Source of the DNA: an uncultured virus (IMG/VR IMGVR_UViG_3300007735_000782) | Taxonomy: Duplodnaviria > Heunggongvirae > Uroviricota > Caudoviricetes | IMG/VR virus record: IMGVR_UViG_3300007735_000782 | Length of the DNA: 64,000 nt | Reading direction: 5' to 3' (one strand) | Shown here: positions 29,600-56,906 of the stretch, one piece after another | Numbering within the stretch: position 1 is the first letter of the stretch | Layout of the letters: each line of letters begins with the position of its first letter | The notes under the pieces: generated by a model | What the model saw: the letters and a program-made list of their open reading frames with translations, nothing else | The model's database searches: none | What the model was told of the DNA's origin: nothing | Program-made: the position numbers and the translations under genes

Positions 29600-29896
29600 A
29601 TGCAGCACATTCAACTTCATCGCCTCACCACTCGCTTTAAGGCTCCAAACGTCACTATTCAAGAAAGCAGGCAAGTTATTGGTCAACGCATGAAAGAAGC
29701 AAGATTGAATTGCGGTTTGTCGCAACAGGATATAGCGCAGATTTTGCACTGCGATCAAACTACTGTTTCACGAATGGAACGCGGAGCAATATCTCCTGAT
29801 TGCGCTCAAATTCGCACACTTAGCTCAGTGTTTCAACTTTCTATTTTGTATCTACTTGGCTATCCCACTTTCGTGGTATCTGCTGTTAGCAATTAA
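29600..29896 (+). CDS. XRE-family helix-turn-helix regulator
   Basis: 'IGQRMKEARL..GLSQ.DIA..L......VSRMERG...P'. Confidence 0.85.
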   Translation: MQHIQLHRLTTRFKAPNVTIQESRQVIGQRMKEARLNCGLSQQDIAQILHCDQTTVSRMERGAISPDCAQIRTLSSVFQLSILYLLGYPTFVVSAVSN

Positions 29897-37326: not shown

Positions 37327-38016
37327 ATGATCAAAGATCCAAATCGCTTTTATGTCTACGCTTATTTGAGAAGTAAAGACTCGGAAAACGGCAAGAAAAA
37401 TACGCCCTATTACATAGGCAAAGGATGTGGAGATCGTGCCACTTCTAAATTGCGAACGATTCCAAAGCCTTCAGACCCTGCTCTTATTATTTACGTTGAA
37501 GAAGGATTAACAGAAGAAGAAGCGTTTTCTTTGGAAAAATACTACATTGCTCTCTACGGACGCATTGACAATGGCACTGGCAGCTTGCGCAATTTAAGTG
37601 ACGGGGGTGACGGGCCATCTGGGGCTATTCACTCAGAAGAGACCAAGAGAAAAAGAGCAGAAGCTGGGCGGGGGCGAAGACACAGCAAGGAATCCGCTCT
37701 AAAAATTTCCGAGGCTCAGTTGGCTGAGAAAAATCACATGTGGGGTAAAGTTGTGTCCGAGGAAACTCGGCTTAAATTATCTAAGGCGAATAAGGGTCTT
37801 AAAAGGTCCAAGGAAACCCGTCAAAGAATTGCAGCAGGAAAATGCCGCTATTTGTGCGAATTAATTGACCCTGCCGGTCTAGTGCATGTAGTTCAAAATT
37901 TATATCAATTTTGTTTGAAAAATGGATTGCATCGCAAATTAATGAGTAACTTGGTTAACGGCAAAAGAAGTTCCTATAAAGGATGGACTGTTCGAAAAAT
38001 TGAGTTTTTGCGCTGA
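37327..38016 (+). CDS. GIY-YIG-like homing endonuclease with NUMOD3 repeats
   Basis: 'YVYAY...YYIGKG...R', 'LRN..DGG.G', repeats 'HSEETKRK', 'SEETRLKLS'; coupled to terminase. Confidence 0.85.
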   Translation: MIKDPNRFYVYAYLRSKDSENGKKNTPYYIGKGCGDRATSKLRTIPKPSDPALIIYVEEGLTEEEAFSLEKYYIALYGRIDNGTGSLRNLSDGGDGPSGAIHSEETKRKRAEAGRGRRHSKESALKISEAQLAEKNHMWGKVVSEETRLKLSKANKGLKRSKETRQRIAAGKCRYLCELIDPAGLVHVVQNLYQFCLKNGLHRKLMSNLVNGKRSSYKGWTVRKIEFLR

Positions 38017-41025: not shown

Positions 41026-42483
41026 TTATTCGGCGCAACTACTACAAACATTAGTAGTCAATTCGCAAACAACAGTTTCCTCATTATCTTCATCGTTGGC
41101 TTCATCATTTAAACCAAACATATCTTTAAACGACTCATCTAGCGCAGCATAAGCATCATCTTTCCGCTGTGTGTCCGAAAGGACTTGCAGGGAATAATAG
41201 AGGCTTGTCTGAGATGATTCTAGCCAATCATTCAAGAAGGCACGATCATAAACAACCATATCACTCCAACTATTAAAGCTATAACCATGAAATAATCCTG
41301 ATGATTGGTACAAACTAACAATGCCATTCATTGCTTTGCAATACGCTTCCCAGCCCACTGTTTCTGCAATTTCTACATCACCATAATCAAAACTTTCCAC
41401 GCCAAATGTACCACTATCTCTATCAACAAGACGAGCGATGGGAGGAGCAATTTCAGGCGTAGCAGTAAAACCTTTCTTATCTAAATAACGATAAGAGCAA
41501 GAAGCAGTAGGAGCAATGGCAAAAGCACGTTCCATGCCATGCTTAAATGCAACATCAGCAGCTTGAATAATTGCACTGGATAAAGTGATTACAATTGCTC
41601 CCGCTTTGGTTTCTTTCCATTGATCACACCATGGCAATGAATCTTTATCTAGCCATGCTTCAAGGGCATCACCAAAATCTTTATACGATACTTCTTCTGC
41701 AGCTAAGAAATTAGCAAGGCCAAGCATACCTAGACCCACCTGCCTATCAACAATAGGAGGAAGGTACTCGCCAGTAGCACCAACTTTAGTAATTCCATGT
41801 AATTGACATAATTGTTCCATGCCATCGACAAATGCTTTTTCAATATCATTAATACCACAAGCCCCCATATTTACATGCTGTAGCAAACAAGTGCCACGAT
41901 GGGGCAAATATACTTCTAGGCAAACATTAGCATAAATGCGTTCACCATTTTCGTTATAACGAATTTTATTTAACCAAATATCTCCAGAGCTAATGCCTTT
42001 AAGCGTGGCATCAATTAGTTCAGGCGATGCAAGGTCCAAAAACAAAGGATCTACATTTAAACAACGTTTAACCCATGGCAATTCTTTTCTGGATGCAGTA
42101 ACAAAATCAATGGCATCAGGGTGAGTGTAATCAAGATGAAGAACAACAGCACCATTTTTATAAATACCACCACGACGTAATATTTCATTAAGTGTGGAAT
42201 AAATTTTACCAAAGCTAAGAGGACCACTAGCTACCAAGCCTTTGCCATTTTCATGACCTTTAGCTCGTAAATTAGAAAGATGAATGGCAACACCAGCACC
42301 ATTTCGCAGCCCATGGGATACAAACCTCCAAGACTGCTCAATGCCCTCAGGGCCTTCCATAGCATCTTCCACTACAAATACTGTGCAGCTAACTGCGAGG
42401 CGCCCCTCGGGGTCATCCAGCCAGCTTTGCACCCTGCCAGTGCGGGCAACTTTGGTGCATTGAGCGTTTTCTTTGAAATTCAT
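41026..42483 (-). CDS. nrdA: Ribonucleotide reductase large subunit, minimal cyano-sipho/podovirus type
   Basis: 'VSCTV', 'NVCLE', 'GTCLL', 'IAPTASCS', C-terminal 'CSSCAE'. Confidence 0.9.
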   Translation of the reverse strand: MNFKENAQCTKVARTGRVQSWLDDPEGRLAVSCTVFVVEDAMEGPEGIEQSWRFVSHGLRNGAGVAIHLSNLRAKGHENGKGLVASGPLSFGKIYSTLNEILRRGGIYKNGAVVLHLDYTHPDAIDFVTASRKELPWVKRCLNVDPLFLDLASPELIDATLKGISSGDIWLNKIRYNENGERIYANVCLEVYLPHRGTCLLQHVNMGACGINDIEKAFVDGMEQLCQLHGITKVGATGEYLPPIVDRQVGLGMLGLANFLAAEEVSYKDFGDALEAWLDKDSLPWCDQWKETKAGAIVITLSSAIIQAADVAFKHGMERAFAIAPTASCSYRYLDKKGFTATPEIAPPIARLVDRDSGTFGVESFDYGDVEIAETVGWEAYCKAMNGIVSLYQSSGLFHGYSFNSWSDMVVYDRAFLNDWLESSQTSLYYSLQVLSDTQRKDDAYAALDESFKDMFGLNDEANDEDNEETVVCELTTNVCSSCAE

Positions 42484-43037
42484 TTGAAACTCTTAGGGTA
42501 AAGATGGTGACCGTGGTCTTGTAAATAATCGGCCCGACTTGACTGAGCTTTGGCTAAAGCCTCTTCGGGAGTGGCAAATCCGCCTAGCGAGACATCTTTG
42601 CCGTTGATACTTATGCGAGCATAGTATCTGTTGCCGACTTTCTTAACACCTCTGCCATAAAGGGATTCACGGTTTTTCGTGTTAAGTAGTTGACCTGAGT
42701 AAGTAGCCAGTCGCAGGTTTTCGGGGTCATTATTTGACGGATTCCTGTCGATGTGATCAATGGTGTAACAACCAGGATCTTGCTGGTGATGAAGTGCCCA
42801 AACAATGCGGTGAGCGTGAAAGCGTTTCCCGTAAAAGTTCACAATGCAATGCCCCGTGTCTTTCAAGGAGCCCGCTACATCGCCTGCTTTCATTTTCCAG
42901 TGATCTACTTTCCACCTGAGTCCAGTGGGGCTGGATGGGTCAATAGATAATCTGCCGCTTAACTTGTCTAGGTCTAGTGGTAGGTACATGAGAATAGAAA
43001 GACAAACTCCGTGACGACTCACTGGAAAATCTAGCAC
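42480..43037 (-). CDS. HNH homing endonuclease with AP2-like domain
   Basis: 'HRIVW', 'IDHIDRNPSNN..ENLR', 'YYARI......LG.F.T.EEA'; ATGA-coupled to RNR. Confidence 0.88.
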   Translation of the reverse strand: MLDFPVSRHGVCLSILMYLPLDLDKLSGRLSIDPSSPTGLRWKVDHWKMKAGDVAGSLKDTGHCIVNFYGKRFHAHRIVWALHHQQDPGCYTIDHIDRNPSNNDPENLRLATYSGQLLNTKNRESLYGRGVKKVGNRYYARISINGKDVSLGGFATPEEALAKAQSSRADYLQDHGHHLYPKSFK

Positions 43038-43796: not shown

Positions 43797-44032
43797 TCAG
43801 GATAGACCACACCTGGCACAAAGTCAAGAACAGGCTCAATGGTGAAATCAATTAAATCTGCTTGGTAACCATTGTATTTATCCCTAGAAGCTTTCCATAA
43901 GCATTTATTTTGCGGGATTAAACGTTCCTTCAGTTCAATAATAACTTTACTGAAATACCGCCTTGCTGCAACACGCAAATGCCAACGTTGCGTAACGATA
44001 ATGACTGTTTCTTGTGGTTCGTAATAAACCAT
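43790..44032 (-). CDS. Hypothetical protein
   Basis: 80-aa ORF overlapping next gene. Confidence 0.5.
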   Translation of the reverse strand: MVYYEPQETVIIVTQRWHLRVAARRYFSKVIIELKERLIPQNKCLWKASRDKYNGYQADLIDFTIEPVLDFVPGVVYPDW

Positions 44033-44595
44033 TTACTTTTCTCTGACCATGGCAAAACTATAGGGCATTGCCGGAAATAACGCAAAACCTAAGAGAAATC
44101 TTAAAAAAATATAAGAGTTTTTAGCCTATTCATTGCTATCACTGGAGTCTCATTTGAGTCTCATTCGCGTCTCATGAGATTTCAATATACGATAGGTAAA
44201 GGAGATGCACATGCTTACGAGCAGTTCATTCACCTTCGCGAGCCGCTACGCGCAGGAGCCCCCAAGGCGTCCTTTCCAAGCGGCTCTGCTCCACCATCAT
44301 CCTTTCAATTACTTTTAATTAAGTAACCTCTGCTAAGGAGCCCTTACGAGCAGAGCCCCAAGCGCCTATTTTCCTAGGGCTCCTTTTTAATTATCTTTTC
44401 AATACTTTCGCGAGAGCATCAGAAGCCGCTAAAGTTGTGATCGCACAGCACTAAACTATAAAAAGATAAAAAAATCAATAAAAAGAAGAAGAAAGGACGC
44501 AATGATTGACGCTCTTTGGGAGCTACCTTCGCGATGCGTCCTAAGAGGCAAAAGGAATTCCATTGGAATTCCGCCGGAACACTTAGAGCAATGCC

Positions 44596-44609
44596 AGTAC
44601 AAGTGTTCC
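44596..44609. promoter_or_regulatory. Cyanobacterial LexA box
   Basis: AGTAC-AAGT-GTTCC matches RGTACNNNDGTWCB. Confidence 0.5.
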
Positions 44610-45085
44610 TTTGGTAAAGAAAGTGCAATTATCGAACTTTGGTGACCTCACAATGCTCGTATGGGCGCGATTGTTCGGTCAGTCGCCATTGATTTTACGC
44701 TGATGCGAGTATTTTACGAAGGTGCGAGTAAATAGTCGTAAAATTAATAAATACTTGCATTACTAATAAATGACCGTTATTAAAATTCCTGATAATTGGA
44801 ATTTTCGATGGAAAAATTGGTCGCATTTGGAAGGGGTAACCCCGACACAGACAAATTAATACAGGCGTACTACTGCTCTGTGTTAAGCTTTGCGACTGAT
44901 AAGAATTCCTAATAGATTAAAGTTATTAATATAACAGAAGGGTTGTTGTTACTTAGTGGCGTAGGGTTAGTGTTATTTTAGGGCCCTAAAATAGTGGATT
45001 TTCTCATTACCTAACCAAACTAAAGCTCTAGACGGTTAAGCCTAGAGCTGATATATATACAACCTAGGGCTCTTGGCCTAGGCTC

Positions 45086-45982
45086 CTAGGCTCCCATGCG
45101 ATCCGCTGAAAGGCAGAATGCATCCCGTTCTGCTGGCGTCCACTTGATGCCATGGGGGAGCTTAAACCTTAAGCCAATGATTTTGTAGCCGTTAGGATCG
45201 GCTGGCCGATAATCCGTTAGGTCTCCATCTTCTACGCTGAGGCTACGGTTCCCAAAATAGGCTTTACCGGGAAGCGATTTGCCTTTCTTGATGTTAAATG
45301 CTGCGGCAATGTTAACACCAGCGCTTAAGGCTTCGGTGGCAAGCTTGAAATTAGACCTATTGTTGTATCCATCAAAGCTAAAAGTTAAGTGATAACCTAA
45401 GCGCTTACATTCGGCCCAATTATGCTTTACTTTCGTATAATCATAGAAAATTACATCTTCTCCCGTATTGTCACGCATAAAGTTAAATATTTCAAAAATG
45501 TTACGCTTGCCGAGTGGTAATATGGCGCCGAACTTAATTCGGCAGAATTGAGCAAAATCAGCAGTTATTTCAAAATCTATATCTTCCCAAACTATATCAC
45601 TAGTGCCATTAAGCCTAAAGGCTAAGGGTTCGCTTGATTTTGTAAGCTTGCCTAGGATTGCCATAATTACTAGGCGGACAAACAGCTTGGGATTGGCGGC
45701 GTAGGCAAGGGTTCGCCTAACTCGGGCCTTCGCTTTGCCATTCATATAAACAGGATTACCGGCAAAGTGTAAACAGATCTTTTTACAATTACCGGCGCCA
45801 TGGCAAACATTAACCCCCGATGTATCAGCGGGAGCGAGATGTAAAATGTAGGTTTGAACTAGGCTCTTTTCAGTTTTAGGGTTGGTACTGAGTAGGGTCC
45901 GGTAAGATAGGTCGAATTCAGAGCAAAGGGCCGCCATATCAGCGGGAAGGGTTGCGCGGGAGTTAAGAACTGAGAAGGTCAT
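45086..45982 (-). CDS. Gp88-like Cys-motif (radical-SAM-like) phage protein
   Basis: 'N.KT.K', 'L.LAPA..SG.NVC....C...CL', 'RLNGTSD..W', 'FYDYTK', 'Y.LTFS', 'DGD..D.R'; start taken at MTFSV. Confidence 0.75.
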   Translation of the reverse strand: MTFSVLNSRATLPADMAALCSEFDLSYRTLLSTNPKTEKSLVQTYILHLAPADTSGVNVCHGAGNCKKICLHFAGNPVYMNGKAKARVRRTLAYAANPKLFVRLVIMAILGKLTKSSEPLAFRLNGTSDIVWEDIDFEITADFAQFCRIKFGAILPLGKRNIFEIFNFMRDNTGEDVIFYDYTKVKHNWAECKRLGYHLTFSFDGYNNRSNFKLATEALSAGVNIAAAFNIKKGKSLPGKAYFGNRSLSVEDGDLTDYRPADPNGYKIIGLRFKLPHGIKWTPAERDAFCLSADRMGA

Positions 45983-46035
45983 GATTAAGAGGGGAGGGGG
46001 GGGAAGGGGAAGGGAAGGGAGGGGAGGGGAGAGAG

Positions 46036-46191
46036 TCAGCGCCCCCAATGGACCACGCGGCAATAGTCAACCGCATGGGAAGCTTGGCAACGCTTAAACC
46101 GGGCGGCGGCGTCGCGATCGCTCCAAACCAAAGCCACAACAAAGGCGAAGCAATAAACGGGAATAGCTATGCGATGCATTAATGGGTGCAT
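46036..46191 (-). CDS. Small membrane protein with CQxxHxxxYCR motif (51 aa, not in ORF track)
   Basis: MHPLMHRIAIPVYCFAFVVALVWSDRDAAARFKRCQASHAVDYCRVVHWGR. Confidence 0.6.
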   Translation of the reverse strand: MHPLMHRIAIPVYCFAFVVALVWSDRDAAARFKRCQASHAVDYCRVVHWGR

Positions 46192-46408
46192 GATTAAACA
46201 AGCAAAGGTCGGCAGCGGATCGATTCACTGCTTGCGCCTATTGTTGCGCCTATTCTGCCAACGTCTAAAGAAAGTGGCCAGTTGCGCAACTGTCCACCGT
46301 AACGCTGCTTTGCATTGACAAAATAGCCAATGCATCATAGGGGAGCCCACAGGGGGCGAATTGTAGCTAACTATAACGGCGGAAAGTATCACCTAACGTA
46401 ATGCTAAG

Positions 46409-46546
46409 TAACATTATTAAGAAATGTTAAATAACATTATTAAGAAATATTAAGTAACATTATGAAAAAATATTAAGTAACATTATTAAGAAATGTTAAA
46501 TAACATTATTAAGAAATGTTAAATAACATTATTAAGAAATGTTAAA
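46409..46546. repeat. Six tandem 23-bp repeats TAACATTATTAAGAAATGTTAAA
   Basis: Copies at 46409, 46432, 46455, 46478, 46501, 46524; four exact, two variants. Confidence 0.95.
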
Positions 46547-46568
46547 TAATAACAACGGAAGCGTTATA

Positions 46569-46789
46569 TTAAGAAAAGGTTAAGAAAAGGTTAAGAAAAG
46601 GTTAAGTTAAGGCAAGGTTAAGAAGAGGTTAAGGTTAGGTTAAGTTAAGAAAAGGTTAAGGGAAGGTTAAGATTAGGTTAAGTTAAGGTTTGGTTAAGAA
46701 AAGGTTAAGATTAGGTTAAGAATAGTACATTTGTACTAGGTTAAGAAAAAGTTAAGGGAAGGTTAAGAAAAGGTTAAGAGAAGGTTAAG
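46569..46789 (-). repeat. Array of CTTAACCT-N3 repeats (cyanobacterial Pho-box half-sites)
   Basis: 15 exact AGGTTAAG on + strand plus variants, 11-bp period with variable 3-nt spacers. Confidence 0.85.
46723..46738. promoter_or_regulatory. Cyanobacterial LexA box inside the array
   Basis: TAGTAC-ATTT-GTACTA, symmetric match to RGTACNNNDGTWCB. Confidence 0.7.
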
Positions 46790-46805
46790 GAAAAACCAGG
46801 GCCTT

Positions 46806-46890
46806 TATACAACCCTAGCCGGACCCTATACAACCCTAGCCGGATCCAATTTATTTTCCAGCCGGACCCTATACATTCCCAGCCGGACCT
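46806..46890. repeat. Four ~21-bp repeats TATACAACCCTAGCCGGACCC
   Basis: Units at 46806, 46827, 46848, 46870 with invariant AGCCGGA core. Confidence 0.85.
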
Positions 46891-47045
46891 CACCAACCAT
46901 TTTCTGCTTGAGCCGCTTCAATGGCGGCTTCTTCATTGTCATATGGCCCGCCAATGTTTTCACCATCATCTTCATGCCAATACCAGCCTTCTATTAATTC
47001 AGTGCCCCTGCAGCATTCTGCAGTGAAATAATCAATAAGAATCAT
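46890..47045 (-). CDS. Small acidic protein (51 aa, not in ORF track)
   Basis: MILIDYFTAECCRGTELIEGWYWHEDDGENIGGPYDNEEAAIEAAQAENGW. Confidence 0.6.
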   Translation of the reverse strand: MILIDYFTAECCRGTELIEGWYWHEDDGENIGGPYDNEEAAIEAAQAENGW

Positions 47046-47175
47046 TAGTTCCTCTCAGCGGCGGACAGGGCAGAAGACGATGGGTCGAAATCATCGTCAT
47101 TATCATTTTCAAAATCATCGTCATTATCATCATAATCATCGGGATTAATGCCCCAATGGTCTAGGAAATAATCGT

Positions 47176-47484
47176 TCATGCTGCCCCTTGTAGTTTTGCT
47201 ACGGCCAGTGCAAAGGCTTTGGGAGAACGCCCACCAGGGCGCTTTAGCTCATAACCATCACTGTCAACAATGGTGGTGCCAGCACTATCTACGTGCCCTT
47301 CCAGCTCTCGCTCCCACATGCCAACGCAGCGATCATCATGAAACACTGCGATAGTGTCATCGCCATCTTCCATTGCAATGCGAGTGTGAAAGAGAATGTC
47401 TTTTAGGCGAGCAGCTTGATAACTCATTACTGTGGCCCCAAAATAAGGGCCATTATCTTGATAAGTGCGAATGGTGCAGGTCAT
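47176..47484 (-). CDS. Hypothetical early protein
   Basis: MTCTIRTYQDNGP... start preferred. Confidence 0.6.
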   Translation of the reverse strand: MTCTIRTYQDNGPYFGATVMSYQAARLKDILFHTRIAMEDGDDTIAVFHDDRCVGMWERELEGHVDSAGTTIVDSDGYELKRPGGRSPKAFALAVAKLQGAA

Positions 47485-47512
47485 GGTTTTAAAGCGATGG
47501 TAGTAAAAAAAA

Positions 47513-47710
47513 TTAATCTTGATCAATAATACGAAAATCAGGATCATTATCCTTTTTAATCCAGCGGCATTGGTTGACTTCACCATTGTCGCCTCTGATC
47601 ACAACAAATAGTTTATCGTGATGATTTTGCTCCACTATTACAGTGGTAAGCTTTTTGCCGATGCGGCTTTTGCCTTTAGGGCTAATTGCGATGATGTTGA
47701 TGGTGTCCAT
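47513..47710 (-). CDS. Hypothetical early protein
   Basis: 65-aa ORF in early-gene run. Confidence 0.6.
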   Translation of the reverse strand: MDTINIIAISPKGKSRIGKKLTTVIVEQNHHDKLFVVIRGDNGEVNQCRWIKKDNDPDFRIIDQD

Positions 47711-47821
47711 GATTAAGAGAACGAAGGAGTGCTGATCGACGGGCCTTGGCGGCCCTTAATGCTTGGGGCTTGAGCCTCCGTTTAGGAGGCTTGCCGCTGT
47801 TGTGCTGGTGGTTGGGAACAT

Positions 47822-48103
47822 TCATGCTGCTGGAGCCTCCCATTGTGCTTCCATCCAACGCTGGCGATCATCGCCATTTTCAAATAGTGCTAGGGGCTCT
47901 TCGCTGTTGGGCTTAGTGCAGAAAACCTTGCTGGTGATGATCTGGCCAGACTGTGCATTGCGGAAGCTTGCGGTCCAGAGGAAGAAGCCCATGCAGGAAG
48001 CCTCAAGGCTTACGCGACGCTCAATGCAAGCGTTGCGGTGGTCAGACCACCATTGCCCTTGCGTGGGGGTGAAGCTGGTCATGTCGAAGATAAGGCTGTT
48101 CAT
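47822..48103 (-). CDS. Hypothetical early protein
   Basis: Start MNSLIF follows the promoter-hairpin cassette at 48122. Confidence 0.6.
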   Translation of the reverse strand: MNSLIFDMTSFTPTQGQWWSDHRNACIERRVSLEASCMGFFLWTASFRNAQSGQIITSKVFCTKPNSEEPLALFENGDDRQRWMEAQWEAPAA

Positions 48104-48214
48104 GGTTTTGAAGCAATGGTGGAGAGCCTCTCGGCTCGTTGAACTAACAATAAGCTGAAAAGGCCCGGAACGGAAGCCTTTGATCAATCATTGTTGCTTA
48201 TGTTTACAAAAGGC

Positions 48215-48475
48215 TCAGCGCTGCTGGTCGCAAATGCCTGCGAGCATCTCACCAACGTATTGGTGGGCATCACGAAGCGCGTCAAGTGCTGCCTGACGCT
48301 CGGCACGAGCTTGGTGATAGGCACCGTCGGCTTGTGGGTAATAGTCGCGGCCATTCAGCGTGGCGGCAGCCAGAGCGTCGATGGCTTTATCAATGGCATC
48401 GTACGCATTGGCGTACTCATCACGCAGGGTGATAAAGCCGGTGCCGTTGAGGTGGATGGTGGGGATGGTTGCCAT
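48215..48475 (-). CDS. Hypothetical early protein
   Basis: 'PTIHLNGT', 'NGRDYYPQ'; follows promoter-hairpin cassette. Confidence 0.7.
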   Translation of the reverse strand: MATIPTIHLNGTGFITLRDEYANAYDAIDKAIDALAAATLNGRDYYPQADGAYHQARAERQAALDALRDAHQYVGEMLAGICDQQR

Positions 48476-48550
48476 GGTGAGAAAAGAAGGAGAAGCTCGC
48501 GCTTCGTTGAAACCAATATATGCGCAAAAGGTGCTTTGATACCCTTTTGT

Positions 48551-48829
48551 TTATTTTTCTTTACAAACGGCTTCCATCAGTTGCTTTTGGCTAATTCGCT
48601 TGCCATTAACGTTCCATGATGTATTTCGGCTTAATTTACCATTTATGCAACGATTGGAAATAGTGCAATTAATTTCTTTACCATTGAATTTTCCTATAGC
48701 CTGGCCATAGCCTTCATTGCGGTGGGCAACATAAGCTTGATCATAAAGTTTACCAGTAAAAACATAAGCTTCAGCGTGAAGTTGAGAGGCTCCCACTGCT
48801 AACAATTGATCTTTAGAAAGGTAATGCAT
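48551..48829 (-). CDS. Hypothetical early protein
   Basis: 92-aa ORF. Confidence 0.6.
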   Translation of the reverse strand: MHYLSKDQLLAVGASQLHAEAYVFTGKLYDQAYVAHRNEGYGQAIGKFNGKEINCTISNRCINGKLSRNTSWNVNGKRISQKQLMEAVCKEK

Positions 48830-48831
48830 GA

Positions 48832-49011
48832 TTAACGAGCGTTGATGATGTTGTAGAAATACTGTTCAGCTTCCCACTTGTTATTAAAGATGCCGCAGGA
48901 AGTATATTTACGGTGAGGGATTTGCCCTTGCCAGTAATATGCTTCCCATTTGTAGCAACCATTGGCAAGCATGATGCTTCTAACGTCGTAACCCAATTCT
49001 GATGTTTTCAT
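48832..49011 (-). CDS. Hypothetical early protein (59 aa, not in ORF track)
   Basis: MKTSELGYDVRSIMLANGCYKWEAYYW...; tiles between neighbours with 2-nt gaps. Confidence 0.55.
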   Translation of the reverse strand: MKTSELGYDVRSIMLANGCYKWEAYYWQGQIPHRKYTSCGIFNNKWEAEQYFYNIINAR

Positions 49012-49013
49012 GA

Positions 49014-49220
49014 TCAGTTAATAACGATGTGGTGGCTGGTGTTGTTGATGCGTAAATGGTTCAAATAATCGTCGTATTTTTGTTGCCATTCGGCAGCAGT
49101 GTTAAAGAGCTTGATGAAATAGTCGGGATCAGGGCAGCCAGCAGCTAAATACTTGTTGACTGTTTCCAGCCAGAACTGCTGCTGCCTGGCTACTTCGTCG
49201 CCATAAGAAGAGAATGGCAT
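49014..49220 (-). CDS. Hypothetical early protein
   Basis: Start MPFSSY follows promoter-hairpin cassette. Confidence 0.6.
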   Translation of the reverse strand: MPFSSYGDEVARQQQFWLETVNKYLAAGCPDPDYFIKLFNTAAEWQQKYDDYLNHLRINNTSHHIVIN

Positions 49221-49304
49221 GGGAGAAACTAAAGGTGAGAGCTCTCGCTCGTTGAAAGAACAATAGAACGAAAAGGGGGCTTTTGGCCCCCTCTGTAACA
49301 AAAC

Positions 49305-49685
49305 TTAACAAAAATCAGTGCGGCCATTGGAATAGGCAAACCATTCCCTTTTGCCTGTGCTGGCTGCTTTTTGCCATGCAGCCCATTGCTCAGGTAATTC
49401 TGCGCTCTCGATGCGAGTGCCAGCAGGCACATTTATCGCGCCTGCCAGTGTGGAGATCGTCCACTGATCATTGACAGGGCCATTGATGTACCACGTTTTG
49501 CAAACATGCAGCAGGCCAACCATTTCGAGCTGGCGAGGGTTAGCAGCACCCATCCGCACGTTAATCGGGAACGGTTCGTGCCAATCGGGCACTGTTACCA
49601 CAATGCTGATGCGCTCTAAACCATCAAATTTGGTGTAGTGGCCAGCAGTGGTGAGCTGGTCAACTGTGTGATTAAGGCTAATCAT
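49305..49685 (-). CDS. Hypothetical early protein
   Basis: 126-aa ORF after promoter-hairpin cassette. Confidence 0.65.
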   Translation of the reverse strand: MISLNHTVDQLTTAGHYTKFDGLERISIVVTVPDWHEPFPINVRMGAANPRQLEMVGLLHVCKTWYINGPVNDQWTISTLAGAINVPAGTRIESAELPEQWAAWQKAASTGKREWFAYSNGRTDFC

Positions 49686-49792
49686 GATTGTGAATGCAAT
49701 GGTGGTGGAAGCTCTCGCCTCCGTCCCTAAATTATTGCACTAAAAAAGCCAGAAGGCACCCCCTGGCTGATTAGCTTTACTTATTGAAACAA

Positions 49793-49984
49793 TTAATGCT
49801 TGGGAGGGCTAATGCCTTCCACCACTTTAAATTTACGGTTAGTGAACAGGAAACGCAGGCCCTGCGCTTTTAGCTCCAGGGCATCACGATCGGGGCTGCT
49901 GCCGAAATGGTGCCATATTCCTGCAGGATCACGAGCCCATAACGAAAAGCCGGGCTCGCGCCGATTAGCAACTGCTGCGGTCAT
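49793..49984 (-). CDS. Hypothetical early protein
   Basis: MTAAVAN start is ATGA-coupled to upstream gene. Confidence 0.55.
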   Translation of the reverse strand: MTAAVANRREPGFSLWARDPAGIWHHFGSSPDRDALELKAQGLRFLFTNRKFKVVEGISPPKH

Positions 49985-50265
49985 GGCTGTAGCTCCAAAA
50001 TTTTGCCTTTGGCCTTGATGCTGATCACGCGATTGCAATCGAACGAACGCCAGGCCCCACCACCATGGGTGCGGGCGATGGTGAAATCACGGCAGCGGAT
50101 GATTGCAGGATTAGTCAATTTGTAGCCAGTGCCCTTAATTTCTTGCGTGTCGCGAGGATTAAATTGCAGCGAGCGCTTTTCGCCATTGGTTTTAATAAAA
50201 TTAACGGAGATGATGCTGCTGCCAGCATCGCGAATAAAGCTTTTGATGAGAGTGGTTTTGTCCAT
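49981..50265 (-). CDS. SH3-like beta-barrel protein (DUF2693-like)
   Basis: 'V.F.K.NGE.R', 'D.....WRSF'; start MDKTT after cassette. Confidence 0.6.
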   Translation of the reverse strand: MDKTTLIKSFIRDAGSSIISVNFIKTNGEKRSLQFNPRDTQEIKGTGYKLTNPAIIRCRDFTIARTHGGGAWRSFDCNRVISIKAKGKILELQP

Positions 50266-54841: not shown

Positions 54842-56767
54842 TCAAAAGAAATCTTCCGTCTCCTCCTCTTCTGGCTTGTAATCCCACGAATGGTAAAGCC
54901 TAGTTTTTTCTCCGTTAGGGCCATTCTGGAAGCTGCTAGTAATCAAGCCCTGCCGCCGTGCCACTTCCAGCATCTTGGCTGTAGATGAAATTTCCAGTGA
55001 TCCACTTAAAGCCGTCACTTGTTGTTTCGTGAGTCGTTCCTTCTTACGCATTTGCACTACATTCACGCATTGATCTAATTCAGCCAGTGAACCACCCAGA
55101 GGCCCTGCATAATGCCAGCCATAATTCAATGGATCACGCTGCAACATGTGTTTACCAGTAAGGCCACTCCTGCTCTTCATCCATTCAAAATGGAATTGGC
55201 TAGGGTCACCATTGTTTTCTGGTTTGGTAAGTTTCACCACTTCACTAACATTATCTACAAAGCTAGTGGAATCCCTTAAGCCACCACTTTTATTTAAATG
55301 GTGAAGAATAATAAAACTAACATTATATTTATTGGCAATATCACGTAGATCATAAATTACATCACCAGCATTACTTCTAACCAAATCAACATCCATGCCA
55401 GCAAGGCATGCAGTGAGAGAATCAATGGCAATAAACACAGGGCGATGTTTTCTCACGTAATCTTCTAATTGCTTGATATGACCAAAACGCCAATTCTCCC
55501 AAAATGTAATATCACCTTCTTCAAGCCCTGCATCCTTATAACCAATAACACCAAGCTTTTCACTGGTATCAACTAATGGTTCATCACTTTGAATGATCAA
55601 GCATTTGCCTTTGAGGCATCGCCTGCCGCTCCATGATTGACCAAGGGCAATATTAAGAGCCCAGTTATAGATAAGTGTTGATTTACCGGTGCCGCCTGAT
55701 GCAGCTAAAAGCATGACGGTTCCTAGTGGCATGATTCCTGCAATCAACCATTCTCTACATTGTTCAGACCTAGCAATGGTAAGGGCATCAATGTTTTCAA
55801 TTTCGTCTTTGCCATAAATACGAGCTTTGGCATCTTCAATAGTTTTATCAATGTTTTGCTGCGTCATCTTCACAGAATGCTGTTCTAACCATGAACTGGT
55901 TTCATATAGAACACGAGAATCACTGGTATAAAGACCAACAAAATTTTCAATGGTAGACATAATTTCATCATATGAAGGCTTACCATCTTTTCCTTTATGA
56001 AGATTTGCAGTAATAGAAGCTAATAAGTCATCCTTTGTAACGCCTTCTTCTATGTAATCAGCTAAATCCAAACCATTGCCATGAGGTAGATTTTTCCATT
56101 CCCATGATTTGGGATCGGCATAAAGCCACTGTGCCCCTGGATTATCGGCTTCAATTTCACGCATAAATGCAACGCCTTGTTCATCACGATCAGGCGCCAA
56201 CACAATATTATGCTGTTTAAACAATTGCGAATAATCGCCATTAGTTCGATATTGTTTACTGCCGCCCAAGAAAGTAACAGCAGGTAGGCCAAGAGACCAT
56301 ACTGCTTCACAAGTTAATTCACCTTCAACAATGATAATAGGCAAGCCAGTTTTCTTGCTTTCTTCAACTGCTTCTTTATATTTATATGGAAGAATATTTG
56401 CTTTAATATCTTTTAATTGAAGTTGATGATTAGACAATGAACGATCAATGGTAGGAAATTCTTGCCATATACGCTTACTGCCATTTGCATCATTGCGATG
56501 CACTATTACTACTTCACTGCCAGAGGTATCGGCATACGGGAACACATGAGAGCCAGTGGGACGGGCAGGCTTCTCCCATCTCTCCTTCGGGGCCAACGCC
56601 TCTCTGATTTCAGCTCGATGAGCGGGGTCTGTATTTGCCCAACAGTTATATGCACCTGTCTGTTTATTGACTGTAAAATCATTGCCGTTGCAAGCAGGAC
56701 AGAAGAATTTGCCTTTATCTGGCGCGGGCTTTAGCTGATCAATAAATTCCAGGATCGAAAAAGTCAT
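54842..56767 (-). CDS. DNA primase-helicase (Zn finger + TOPRIM + RecA-like AAA_25)
   Basis: 'CPAC', 'IVEGE', 'PDRD..G', 'GGTGKST', 'IAIDSL', 'LHHLNK'. Confidence 0.9.
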   Translation of the reverse strand: MTFSILEFIDQLKPAPDKGKFFCPACNGNDFTVNKQTGAYNCWANTDPAHRAEIREALAPKERWEKPARPTGSHVFPYADTSGSEVVIVHRNDANGSKRIWQEFPTIDRSLSNHQLQLKDIKANILPYKYKEAVEESKKTGLPIIIVEGELTCEAVWSLGLPAVTFLGGSKQYRTNGDYSQLFKQHNIVLAPDRDEQGVAFMREIEADNPGAQWLYADPKSWEWKNLPHGNGLDLADYIEEGVTKDDLLASITANLHKGKDGKPSYDEIMSTIENFVGLYTSDSRVLYETSSWLEQHSVKMTQQNIDKTIEDAKARIYGKDEIENIDALTIARSEQCREWLIAGIMPLGTVMLLAASGGTGKSTLIYNWALNIALGQSWSGRRCLKGKCLIIQSDEPLVDTSEKLGVIGYKDAGLEEGDITFWENWRFGHIKQLEDYVRKHRPVFIAIDSLTACLAGMDVDLVRSNAGDVIYDLRDIANKYNVSFIILHHLNKSGGLRDSTSFVDNVSEVVKLTKPENNGDPSQFHFEWMKSRSGLTGKHMLQRDPLNYGWHYAGPLGGSLAELDQCVNVVQMRKKERLTKQQVTALSGSLEISSTAKMLEVARRQGLITSSFQNGPNGEKTRLYHSWDYKPEEEETEDFF

Positions 56768-56906
56768 GCTGCAAGGAATAGCACTCACCATCATGCCAGC
56801 CATGGCTGCATTGCGCAAGGTAAATGGGCATAAGCAATTCTTATGGAAACAATGCTTGCCATTACAAGCTTCTAGGCTATTGTGGGCATGAACTTTGCGG
56901 CCTTCT

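What the first reader, a model, noticed from the sequence alone, without database searches (positions are those of the whole stretch)
46569..46789. Pho-box superarray with conserved half-sites and free spacers
Four 38-bp units [TTAAG-N3-(AGGTTAAG-N3)2-AGGTTAAG], then the LexA box, then five more half-sites; 15 exact AGGTTAAG. The 3-nt spacers vary (AAA, GCA, AAG, GTT, GGA, ATT, AGA) while the 8-mer and 11-bp phase are kept, which points to selection for protein binding rather than slippage. The cyanobacterial Pho box is PyTTAAPyPy(T/A) repeated with 3-nt spacers. No phosphate-acquisition gene (pstS, phoA, phoH) is adjacent or visible in the window.
Basis: partly seen in the sequence, partly recalled or inferred. 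Interest (0 to 1): 0.8.

Follow-up and report, generated by a model that had tools for sequence, protein, structure and literature searches.

The report
Phage array of host Pho boxes
A freshwater cyanobacterial virus carries, in its main non-coding control region, about twenty near-perfect copies of the DNA word recognised by the host's phosphate-starvation regulator, which suggests that the virus reads or manipulates its host's phosphorus status.

Summary
15 exact AGGTTAAG (21 boxes with up to 2 mismatches) lie on one strand at 46566-46789, mostly 11 bp apart. They form five runs of 4-5 in-phase boxes, and a perfect palindrome sits before the last run.

Read on the minus strand, the 8-mer is CTTAACCT. 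That is the published consensus Pho box of the cyanobacterial phosphate regulator SphR/PhoB, with the same 3-bp linker. The palindrome equals the cyanobacterial LexA-box consensus.

The window is an S-CBS4-like freshwater cyanosiphovirus. The array recurs at the same place in 12 IMG/VR contigs whose flanking proteins are only 40-90% identical. Boxes are kept while linkers and copy number vary.

It sits in a ~900-bp non-coding "slot". The slot also holds conserved 21-bp iterons, the most AT-rich stretch of the window, and, in relatives, other swapped-in repeat arrays.

I found no PhoB-like phage protein and no phage gene that tracks the array. The array has no conserved promoter geometry and no phosphate gene beside it, and most relatives lack it.

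Best reading (about 0.5): host SphR/PhoB docks here and couples the phage control region, probably its origin or early-middle boundary, to phosphorus status. Binding is untested. The closest fit is a new variant of a known kind.

The parts
46566..46789 (-). Array B: 21 Pho-box-like 8-mers, reading CTTAACCT on the minus strand (15 exact). They form five runs of 4, 4, 4, 4 and 5 boxes at 11-bp phase, starting at 46566, 46604, 46642, 46680 and 46738. Adjacent runs overlap at a 5-bp offset.
   Evidence: consensus from PMC1906773
46723..46738 (.). Perfect 16-bp palindrome TAGTACATTTGTACTA, which equals the cyanobacterial LexA-box consensus. Its last base is the first base of the next Pho-like box.
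   Evidence: PMC3091678, PMC2921402. It is conserved at the same junction in related arrays.
46806..46889 (-). Array C: four ~21-bp direct repeats (TATACAACCCTAGCCGGACCC on the + strand; ..CCGGCTAG..GTAT.. on the - strand). This is the most widely conserved element of the slot and is iteron-like.
   Evidence: Clusters of the CCGG core occur in 43 of 80 family loci (consensus units).
46400..46549 (.). Array A: 23-bp unit x6.5 (AATGTTAAATAACATTATTAAGA) with an internal palindrome AATGTTA..TAACATT. At 13% GC it is the most AT-rich 150 bp of the window.
   Evidence: Related KTAACATT arrays occur in 6 of 80 family loci.
46303..46345 (-). Short block conserved with L010 and L013. On the minus strand it reads ..TAT(A/T)TTGTCAAnGCAAAGC.. 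and contains a -10-like hexamer. It is a possible promoter of the GP88-like/RNR gene block.
   Evidence: by eye; not tested
45989..46031 (-). (CCCTC)n polypyrimidine tract on the minus strand, ending 7 nt upstream of the likely ATG (45982) of the GP88-like gene.
45086..45982 (-). First gene downstream of the slot: a Pfam GP88-family protein of unknown function. The ORF finder's TTG start at 46063 is probably too far upstream.
   Evidence: Its subtype does not track the array.
46890..47045 (-). Last gene of the early block (51 aa). It is conserved in array-bearing and array-lacking relatives alike.
   Evidence: 11 of 13 array loci, 70 of 78 array-lacking loci
47176..47586 (-). Small conserved protein (family A1, ~100 aa core). 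I used it to collect the phage family.
40242..42483 (-). Ribonucleotide reductase subunits, at the far end of the co-directional gene block downstream of the slot.

Best explanation
The array is a cis-acting DNA element made of consensus binding sites for the host's phosphate-starvation response regulator, SphR/PhoB. SphR/PhoB is an OmpR-family winged-helix protein that binds head-to-tail on 8-bp direct repeats spaced 11 bp apart.

The array lies inside the phage's largest non-coding region (about 45983-46889), between the end of the early/replication gene block and the GP88-like to RNR block. Next to it are conserved 21-bp iterons, a consensus LexA operator and the most AT-rich DNA of the window.

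**Proposed mechanism.** In a phosphorus-starved host, phosphorylated SphR/PhoB coats the five 4-5-box runs. Each run has the size of a full natural Pho box. Occupancy then changes the activity of the neighbouring elements: firing of a probable origin, and/or transcription reading from the early block into the nucleotide-metabolism block. LexA, whose operator abuts a box, adds a DNA-damage input.

**Shown**
- The motif, phase and orientation are identical with the published Pho box.
- Purifying selection acts on the boxes but not on the linkers, across diverged phages.
- No phage-encoded PhoB-like domain was found.
- No phage gene co-distributes with the array.

**Inferred**
- The host protein binds.
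- Binding depends on phosphate status.
- The region is an origin or switch, and binding has a given direction of effect.
For: 1. **Motif identity.** The reverse complement of AGGTTAAG is CTTAACCT, the SphR consensus, with a 3-bp linker and at least 3 tandem repeats (PMC1906773 passages). By my own rough estimate (inference, no call), about 15 array types in the slot times about 20 known 8-mer motifs times 2 strands, divided by 65,536, gives roughly 1% for such a match by chance, before requiring the right spacing.
2. **Tolerated substitutions.** These are C>T at box positions 1, 6 and 7 and T>A at position 8. They are the degeneracies of PyTTAAPyPy(T/A) (PMC10976474).
3. **Conservation.** 12 of 13 IMG/VR pattern hits are syntenic relatives whose flank proteins are 40-90% identical. 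The 13 arrays hold 256 boxes, 167 of them exact. 187 of 243 gaps are 11 bp. Linkers carry 0.1-0.6 bit and box positions 1.2-2.0 bits.
4. **A second host site.** The LexA consensus is embedded at a fixed junction. AGTAC-N4-GTACT occurs in 36 of 80 family loci (53 boxes, against 0.35 in shuffles). In the whole contigs it occurs only in this slot.
5. **No PhoB-like phage protein.** No Trans_reg_C domain was found in 99 window ORFs. None was found in six-frame searches of 10 related contigs, 5 of which are at least 94% complete.
6. **No co-distributed phage gene.** No ORF within +-3 kb is specific to array loci. No window ORF is present in the array-bearing contigs and absent from the 5 array-lacking genomes. 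No domain of the primase/helicase tracks the array.
7. **Orientation.** CTTAACCT reads in the direction of the flanking genes in all loci where the flanking genes could be placed.
8. **Precedent.** Host PhoB binds cyanophage promoters, shown by EMSA on S-PM2d, and regulates P-SSM2 pstS as cited there (PMC10976474).
9. **Origin-like surroundings.** There are 21-bp iterons x4 and a 13%-GC stretch.
Against: - Nothing shows binding.
- PMC10976474 states that bioinformatic Pho-box prediction in phage genomes is unreliable.
- No -10 element sits at a fixed distance downstream of the array: 6 of 14 loci, counting the four-box site of L056, have none nearby. The first gene lies about 580 bp away, with another array in between.
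- There is no phosphate-acquisition gene in the window.
- Only 5 of 80 family loci carry the array. Close relatives such as G008, with up to about 90% protein identity, have other arrays in the slot, so it is dispensable.
- The other slot arrays look like ordinary iterons, so by analogy this one could be an iteron too.
- The host is unknown. Some picocyanobacteria lack sphR, and their natural Pho boxes are far more degenerate (PMC1906773).
- About 6-10 kb of the genome lies outside the window and was not scanned in this phage.
- No DnaA-box-like motif lies in the region, and GC skew does not mark it. The origin assignment rests on resemblance only.
Confidence: 0.5

Rival explanations
1. The 8-mers are iterons for a phage-encoded protein, such as an origin-binding initiator of the P4-alpha kind or a centromere-binding protein of the R1 ParR/parC kind. 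The likeness to the Pho box would then be coincidence, or descent of the phage protein from a PhoB-type winged helix.
For: The slot is full of tandem arrays that differ between phages in the manner of iterons. Beside the array are conserved 21-23-bp CCGG iterons and an AT-rich stretch. The phage has its own primase/helicase and no DNA polymerase was detected. 8-bp iterons in P4 and 11-bp iterons in R1 parC are precedents, which I recall and did not check.
Against: - The match to the host consensus in word, linker length and tolerated substitutions is exact.
- No Trans_reg_C domain was found.
- No gene tracks the array.
- The helicase C-terminus is 68-74% identical to the window's in three array-lacking genomes, and 50-74% in three array-bearing contigs.
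- No ParM-, ParA- or ParR-like family was hit.
Confidence: 0.23
2. Host PhoB does bind, but the array works in trans as a decoy. Replicating phage genomes, each with 20-37 top-affinity boxes, would soak up phosphorylated PhoB and so reprogram the host Pho regulon, rather than regulating anything on the phage.
For: The boxes are super-consensus. 0 of 400 other sampled cyanobacterial genomes hold even one strict three-box site, and natural sites are degenerate. Copy number is high and variable: 4-19 exact boxes, up to 37 with mismatches. There is no conserved promoter geometry and no adjacent phosphate gene.
Against: The position and orientation in the slot are fixed, and the junction with the LexA box is conserved. 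This suggests a cis role, although common descent could explain it as well. Damping phosphate uptake would seem costly for a phosphorus-hungry phage (inference). Most relatives do without the array.
Confidence: 0.13
3. This is a fast-evolving satellite with no dedicated sequence-specific partner: phased A-tract-like DNA that bends, binds nucleoid proteins or promotes recombination. It would be kept by duplication rather than by selection on the word.
For: Blocks of 33-38 bp are visibly duplicated and copy number differs between near-identical phages. 38 of 92 metagenome hits are uniform-spacer microsatellites of the same 8-mer in unrelated DNA.
Against: Across phages with 40-90% identical flank proteins the 8-mer stays exact, while linkers, block structure and neighbours change. 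Within the phage family the linkers are heterogeneous, unlike the microsatellites.
Confidence: 0.08
4. The element acts as RNA. The repeats would be transcribed, by read-through from the early block, as (CUUAACCU-N3)n, or as antisense (AGGUUAAG-N3)n, and would bind a protein or the ribosome.
For: There is no strong terminator between the early block and the array, so read-through is plausible. The + strand RNA would carry many weak AGG/AAGG Shine-Dalgarno-like words (from the sequence).
Against: There is no Rfam match. The 11-bp helical phase, the direct-repeat architecture and the DNA palindrome are hallmarks of duplex-DNA recognition. No RNA run holding the region is available, so the idea is untested.
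Confidence: 0.05

Closest known systems
Synechocystis PCC 6803 SphR Pho boxes (sphX-pstS1, pstS2 and phoA-nucH promoters; Suzuki et al. 2004 as cited in PMC1906773)
   Same: The same 8-bp word (CTTAACCT), the same 3-bp linker and 11-bp phase, and the same tandem direct-repeat layout. Each run of four boxes here has the size of the four-box phoA-nucH site.
   Different: There are 21 boxes in five runs instead of 3-4 boxes, and 15 are exact consensus where natural sites have at most one or two. There is no phosphate gene downstream and no conserved -10 spacing. The array lies on a virus, embedded among iterons and a LexA box.
Pho boxes of cyanomyoviruses (P-SSM2 pstS; S-PM2d genes bound by host PhoB in EMSA, PMC10976474)
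   Same: A cyanophage using the host PhoBR/SphSR system through Pho-box-like cis elements.
   Different: Those are single, degenerate sites in promoters of individual genes of T4-like phages. Here a super-array sits in the non-coding hub of a siphovirus, and no regulated gene has been identified.
Iteron-type replication origins (lambda ori, P4 ori/crr, R6K, pSC101) and origins gated by response regulators (CtrA at Caulobacter Cori, ArcA, MtrA and Spo0A at oriC).
   Same: Tandem 21-23-bp repeats, an adjacent AT-rich stretch, and sites for host regulators next to them. The idea is that a two-component regulator couples initiation to physiology.
   Different: No initiator gene is adjacent; the helicase is 8 kb away. 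There is no DnaA box and no skew signal, and no origin has been mapped in any S-CBS4-like phage.
parC centromere of plasmid R1 (two sets of five 11-bp iterons bound by ParR). Recalled.
   Same: Arrays of short direct repeats at exactly 11-bp phase, which can build a protein-coated superhelical scaffold.
   Different: No ParM-, ParA- or ParR-like gene was detected. No integrase or plasmid-maintenance gene was seen in the window. The word equals a host regulator's consensus.
Cyanobacterial LexA box (AGTACWNWTGTACT; TAGTACA-N2-TGTACTA)
   Same: The palindrome at 46723-46738 matches both published forms exactly.
   Different: It is not upstream of an SOS gene. It is embedded between Pho-like boxes on a phage. 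In relatives it occurs as tandem pairs or triplets in the same slot.

Membership tests
Cyanobacterial Pho box (SphR/PhoB binding site) | 8-bp unit fitting CTTAACCT / PyTTAAPyPy(T/A) | tested here: met
   15 boxes are exact. 20 of 21 fit the degenerate form on the minus strand; the exception is the two-mismatch box at 46566-46573. The definition comes from PMC1906773 and PMC10976474.
Cyanobacterial Pho box (SphR/PhoB binding site) | [quoted passage not shown] | tested here: met
   Five runs of 4-5 in-phase boxes; 16 of 20 gaps are 11 bp. In the family, 187 of 243 gaps are 11 bp.
Cyanobacterial Pho box (SphR/PhoB binding site) | Placed in a promoter in place of the -35 element, about 10 bp upstream of a -10 element (E. 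coli rule quoted in PMC1906773) | tested here: not met
   No -10-like hexamer sits at a fixed distance in the 14 loci compared. The nearest start codon is about 580 bp away, with array A in between.
Cyanobacterial Pho box (SphR/PhoB binding site) | Controls a phosphate-acquisition or phosphate-stress gene | tested here: not met
   No PstS, PhoA, PhoH or similar family among 99 ORFs. The downstream genes are the GP88-like gene, small ORFs, an HNH gene and RNR.
Cyanobacterial Pho box (SphR/PhoB binding site) | Bound by phosphorylated SphR/PhoB, with phosphate-dependent output | not testable with these tools
   No protein-DNA tool was available and no RNA run holds the region.
Cyanobacterial LexA box | 14-16-bp palindrome AGTACWNWTGTACT | tested here: met
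   46724-46737 is exact and is the only exact site in 64 kb.
Cyanobacterial LexA box | Binding by host LexA and SOS-dependent derepression | not testable with these tools
   -
Iteron-containing replication origin | Three or more direct repeats of 17-23 bp beside an AT-rich unwinding region | tested here: met
   Array C is 21 bp x4. 46405-46554 is 13% GC, the lowest in the window; the next lowest is 24%.
Iteron-containing replication origin | Initiator gene adjacent, a DnaA box, or a compositional switch at the site | tested here: not met
   The primase/helicase is at 54842-56818. There is no TTWTNCACA in the region. Cumulative skew extremes do not coincide with the slot in 5 complete relatives.
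Iteron-containing replication origin | Initiation of replication mapped to the site | not testable with these tools
   -
Type II partition centromere (parC-like) | Adjacent parM/parR-type genes | tested here: not met
   No such family in the Pfam or PHROGs scans.

The most novel reading that the evidence does not exclude
The ~900-bp slot may be a plug-in sensor bay. S-CBS4-like cyanosiphoviruses would swap in arrays of binding sites for different host global regulators: SphR/PhoB boxes here, LexA boxes in about half the family, and 10-bp KTAACATT arrays that fit the RpaB HLR1 word at 7 of 8 positions in others. In this way each lineage would gate origin firing or the early-to-middle switch on a chosen host signal (phosphorus starvation, DNA damage, light/redox), or titrate that regulator away from the host chromosome. 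For the Pho array, that would give a direct molecular route from host phosphorus starvation to stalled infection. Reports of delayed or 'pseudolysogenic' cyanophage infection of phosphorus-starved hosts are recalled here, not checked.
Probability: 0.2. Interest if true: 0.85.

Novelty: new variant of a known kind. Interest (0 to 1): 0.66.

Why it matters
Phosphorus limits freshwater and marine cyanobacteria. It is known that some T4-like cyanophages borrow the host PhoBR system to switch on single genes.

Here a different phage group, widespread in lakes and rivers (20 of 24 listed runs hold part of the region, from 12 studies), carries the regulator's consensus site at a density with no counterpart in the genomes searched. 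The site lies in what looks like the phage's origin or main switch, next to an SOS operator.

If the host regulator binds, this is a compact and testable handle on two questions: how nutrient status sets the pace of infection, and why burst size or latency changes under phosphorus stress. It would also be a natural super-affinity PhoB array usable as a phosphate-responsive part or as a PhoB sponge in cyanobacterial engineering.

The modular slot further suggests that phages tune themselves to host physiology by exchanging cis-element cassettes rather than genes.

Tried and rejected
- **No whole genome is held** for the window.
- **No DNA-level match** of 45000-48500 in the phage collection.
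- **S-CBS4 lacks the arrays.** Its syntenic gap falls across the record ends and holds no such arrays. It cannot inform on function.
- **Canonical Pho promoter.** I looked for a -10 hexamer at a fixed distance downstream of the last box in 14 loci and found none conserved. The consensus promoter scan only picked up repeated TTAACA-N18-TAACAT words inside array A.
- **GC skew as an origin marker.** Extremes do not coincide with the slot in 5 complete relatives, and the window has two near-equal minima. I dropped this.
- **DnaA boxes:** none in the region.
- **Rfam:** two sub-threshold chance hits outside the array.
- **Expression:** no RNA holder was listed for 44000-50000, so there is no evidence either way.
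- **Laying contigs of four runs.**
  - One run reproduced 46520-47035 exactly.
  - The others gave short fragments of related strains. Among the variant places shown inside the array, 9 fell in linkers, 3 in exact boxes and 4 in a degenerate box. Register in a repeat is uncertain and 59 rows were not shown, so I give this no weight.
- **Strict three-box pattern in genomes.**
  - The scan of 185,579 species genomes gave 26 hits, 10 of them in cyanobacteria. A PstS-like protein, a phosphatase and an OmpR-type regulator lay downstream of three hits, and several others were simple repeats.
  - 0 of 400 other sampled cyanobacterial genomes had a hit.
  - This shows rarity. It does not show what the unknown host's PhoB prefers.
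- **Phage-encoded binder:** the Trans_reg_C searches, the flank clustering, the whole-contig presence/absence table and the per-domain helicase identities were all negative.
- **GP88-like protein:** no solved-structure relative. I did not fold it, nor the small flank proteins.
- **Earlier notes of this scan:** nothing relevant.
- **Literature:** four full-text searches listed no paper describing repeat arrays, an origin or Pho/LexA sites in S-CBS4-like phages. The library lacks most subscription journals. I did not see the S-CBS4 genome paper, nor any supplements.
Full report
**What is there**

The stretch 46566-46789 holds 21 copies of an 8-mer with a TTAA core. 15 are exactly AGGTTAAG, 5 have one mismatch and 1 has two, and all lie on the + strand. 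The whole 64-kb window has only one other AGGTTAAG. Shuffles gave a mean of 1.86 and never more than 6.

Sixteen of the 20 start-to-start distances are 11 bp, three are 5 bp and one is 25 bp.

A clearer description is five runs of 4, 4, 4, 4 and 5 in-phase boxes. The last box of one run overlaps the first box of the next at a 5-bp offset. The 25-bp gap holds the palindrome TAGTACATTTGTACTA (46723-46738), the only exact AGTAC-N4-GTACT in the window.

A contig from a lake-water run of a different study is identical over 46520-47035, so the array is real DNA. It cannot code for protein: with an 11-bp period, the TAA in the word falls in every reading frame within 33 bp on both strands (read directly from the sequence).

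**What the words are**

On the minus strand the 8-mer reads CTTAACCT. Su et al. [quoted passage not shown] A 2024 study of phage S-PM2d (PMC10976474; passages) uses PyTTAAPyPyT/A for marine Synechococcus and shows by EMSA that host PhoB binds some phage promoters.

The array therefore matches the published site in word, linker length, direct-repeat layout and minimum repeat number. The degenerate pair pattern matches 16 times in the window. All 16 matches are here and on the minus strand, against 1.05 expected.

The palindrome equals both published cyanobacterial LexA-box forms: AGTACWNWTGTACT (PMC3091678, passages) and TAGTACA-N2-TGTACTA (PMC2921402, passages).

**Whose genome**

The window is a siphovirus. 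It encodes a portal, large terminase, major capsid, tape measure, tail proteins, RNR, ThyX, dCTP deaminase, a Sak annealing protein, an exonuclease and a primase/helicase-like ATPase.

Its nearest isolate is Synechococcus phage S-CBS4: portal 63% identical over 92% of its length, ATPase 54% over 98%. There is no match at the DNA level.

Runs holding the region are lake, river, freshwater and drinking-water metagenomes: 20 of 24 listed rows, from 12 studies, with two possible sources among them.

**The surroundings**

The small ORFs predicted at 46036-46392 have no counterpart in any relative. The GP88-like gene most likely starts at the ATG at 45982. The non-coding region therefore runs from about 45983 to 46889.

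Read in the direction of the flanking minus-strand genes, the region contains, in order:

- the stop codon of a 51-aa gene that ends the early/replication block;
- array C, four 21-bp repeats with a CCGGCTAG core (46889-46806);
- the Pho-like array with its LexA-like box;
- array A, a 23-bp unit x6.5 with an internal palindrome. This is the most AT-rich 150 bp of the window, at 13% GC against 24% for the next lowest;
- a short block conserved in some relatives, with a -10-like hexamer;
- a (CCCTC)n tract;
- the GP88-like gene, small ORFs, an HNH gene and the two RNR subunits.

**Relatives**

An exact search for three boxes in phase found 13 IMG/VR stretches. One (L007) is an unrelated AT-rich simple repeat.

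The other 12 are syntenic with the window. Their flank proteins are 40-90% identical to the window's, and each has the same order: CCGG iterons, Pho-like array, variable array.

Pooled with the window, the 13 arrays hold 256 boxes with up to 2 mismatches, 167 of them exact, and 187 of 243 gaps are 11 bp. Box positions outside the TTAA core, which my pattern required, carry 1.2-1.6 bits. Linker positions carry 0.1-0.6 bit.

The substitutions that do occur are T for C at positions 1, 6 and 7 and A for T at position 8. These are the degeneracies written into PyTTAAPyPy(T/A).

The LexA-like palindrome sits in many of these arrays at the same junction, sharing its last base with the next box.

The metagenome scan added 92 stretches, which break down as follows:

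- 28 carry a homolog of a window flank protein. Several are the same contigs as the IMG/VR ones, so they are not independent.
- 38 are uniform-spacer microsatellites from unrelated DNA.
- The remaining 26 are short or mixed.

Near-identical relatives differ in block number. L237, for example, lacks one 38-bp unit, and others have 12-19 exact boxes. Duplication therefore builds and resizes the array, while selection keeps the word.

**The slot in the wider family**

A profile of the small flank protein (alignment A1) retrieved 200 relatives, of which 80 loci were kept.

- Only 5 of the 80 have three or more CTTAACC boxes. Four of these are contigs already found. The fifth, L056, has a neat four-box site, the size of a natural Pho box.
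- 43 of 80 have the CCGG iteron cluster.
- The place of the Pho-like array is otherwise taken by different tandem arrays:
  - 10-bp ACATTTC(G/T)TA repeats, i.e. KTAACATT (6 of 80). These fit the RpaB HLR1 word (G/T)TTACA(T/A)(T/A)-N2 at 7 of 8 positions and share its 10-bp period (PMC6525291, passage).
  - TATGCGCA runs.
  - 49-bp units with CTTATC..GATAAG palindromes.
  - 23-29-bp units.
- AGTAC-N4-GTACT occurs in 36 of 80 loci, 53 boxes against 0.35 in shuffles. The boxes often come as pairs 16 bp apart or as triplets. In ten whole contigs and the window they occur only in this slot.

G008 shares up to about 90% protein identity with the window in many genes, yet it has a different cassette in the slot. 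The slot is thus a conserved place with a conserved core (CCGG iterons, often LexA-like boxes) and exchangeable arrays.

**Who could bind**

- No Trans_reg_C domain, the DNA-binding domain of PhoB and OmpR, was found in 99 window ORFs. None was found in six-frame searches of ten related contigs: five array-bearing fragments and five array-lacking genomes that are 94-100% complete. The same search hit 10 of 14 control genomes.
- In +-3-kb flanks of 13 array loci against 78 array-lacking loci, no protein family is specific to the array. The best case is a 58-aa ORF found in 4 array loci.
- Across whole contigs, no window ORF of 45 aa or more is present wherever the array-bearing contigs cover it and also absent from the five array-lacking genomes.
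- The primase/helicase is the natural candidate for an origin binder, but it does not track the array in any of its four segments. Its C-terminal segment is 74, 71 and 68% identical to the window's in array-lacking G006-G008, and 74, 53 and 50% in array-bearing G005, G003 and G004.
- The GP88-like subtype does not track the array either.

A dedicated phage-encoded binder is therefore not supported. Three possibilities stay open: a gene in the 6-10 kb outside the window, an ORF shorter than 45 aa, or altered specificity in a conserved protein.

**How it most likely works**

The simplest account of an exact, strongly selected, correctly phased copy of a host regulator's site, with no phage protein to pair with it, is that the host regulator binds it. 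I put this at about 0.6 overall: 0.5 for a cis-acting role and 0.13 for a pure decoy.

What that binding does is inference. Against a textbook Pho promoter stand three points: there is no conserved -10 at a fixed distance, the first start codon is about 580 bp away, and there is no phosphate gene.

The neighbours resemble an iteron-type origin or a main switch at the early-to-middle boundary: 21-bp iterons, an extreme AT-rich stretch and a LexA operator, in the largest non-coding region between the replication genes and the nucleotide-metabolism genes. However, there is no adjacent initiator, no DnaA box and no skew signal.

My committed reading is this. Phosphorylated SphR/PhoB, abundant only in phosphorus-starved cells, coats the runs and modulates the adjacent origin or read-through into the GP88-like/RNR block. 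LexA competes at one junction.

The orientation of the boxes agrees with the polarity needed for activation of downstream genes: CTTAACCT reads towards the downstream genes, which appears to be the orientation of the host-promoter sites tabulated in PMC1906773. Common descent of the arrays could explain this equally well.

**Comparison and novelty**

Pho boxes on cyanophages are known. An array of this size and perfection is not. None of four full-text searches listed a description of it, or of any origin or repeat hub in S-CBS4-like phages. The library is incomplete, and I did not see the S-CBS4 genome paper.

Even one strict three-box site is rare in cellular genomes: 26 stretches in the 185,579-species collection, 10 of them cyanobacterial, and none in 400 other sampled cyanobacterial genomes.

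I file the array as a new variant of a known kind. It passes the sequence-level tests for a Pho box and fails the promoter-context tests, so "works like a PhoB docking site" is better supported than "is a Pho-regulon promoter".

Noticed in passing
window 46806-46889; L056-L135: The 21-23-bp CCGGCTAG..GTAT repeats directly after the early block are the most conserved cis element of the family. Clusters occur in 43 of 80 loci. They are the best candidate for true origin iterons or for the site of a conserved phage protein.
   Followed up: partly
window 46400-46549; L061, L062, L066, L117, L121, L123: Array A contains the word TAACATT in inverted pairs. Six relatives carry 10-bp-period direct arrays of KTAACATT, up to 13.6 copies. 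These differ from the RpaB HLR1 word at one position and share its period. They may be a second host response-regulator array.
   Followed up: partly
L020 21460-21530; L060 4188-4449; G006, G009, G010: Array-lacking relatives carry two to five LexA-consensus palindromes in tandem in the same slot, often exactly 16 bp apart, and none anywhere else in their ~70-kb genomes.
   Followed up: partly
L004, L006, L008 (upstream of their arrays): In these relatives the variable array consists of GATC-rich repeats (GATCACGATTCGTATCAGGATC and runs of GATCAC). This is reminiscent of the clustered Dam sites of bacterial origins.
   Followed up: no
window 45989-46031: A (CCCTC)n polypyrimidine tract ends 7 nt before the likely ATG of the GP88-like gene, and no Shine-Dalgarno word is present. 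CT-rich tandem tracts (CTCCTCCTCG, CTTTCTTTC, AACCCTCTC) recur at the corresponding place in many relatives.
   Followed up: no
window 37327-38016 and 42480-43037: Two homing-endonuclease-type genes sit between a conserved upstream gene and the large terminase (NUMOD3/HNH), and just upstream of the RNR large subunit (HNH_3). Both are absent from nearly all compared relatives, so they look like recent insertions.
   Followed up: no
window 47045-47179: A 44-aa ORF made largely of a 12-bp repeat (ATCATCGTCATT) on the opposite strand encodes a very acidic D/N-rich peptide. Laid contigs show length variation here.
   Followed up: no
window 29600-29896: An Xre-type HTH_3 protein is encoded on the opposite strand in the middle of the structural genes. 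It is 89-90% identical in G002 and G008 but only 44-53% in other relatives.
   Followed up: no
L174, L178, L202, L224 and other metagenome loci: The same 8-mer with a single fixed linker forms pure 11-bp microsatellites (up to 24 copies) in unrelated metagenome contigs. I did not examine their origin.
   Followed up: no
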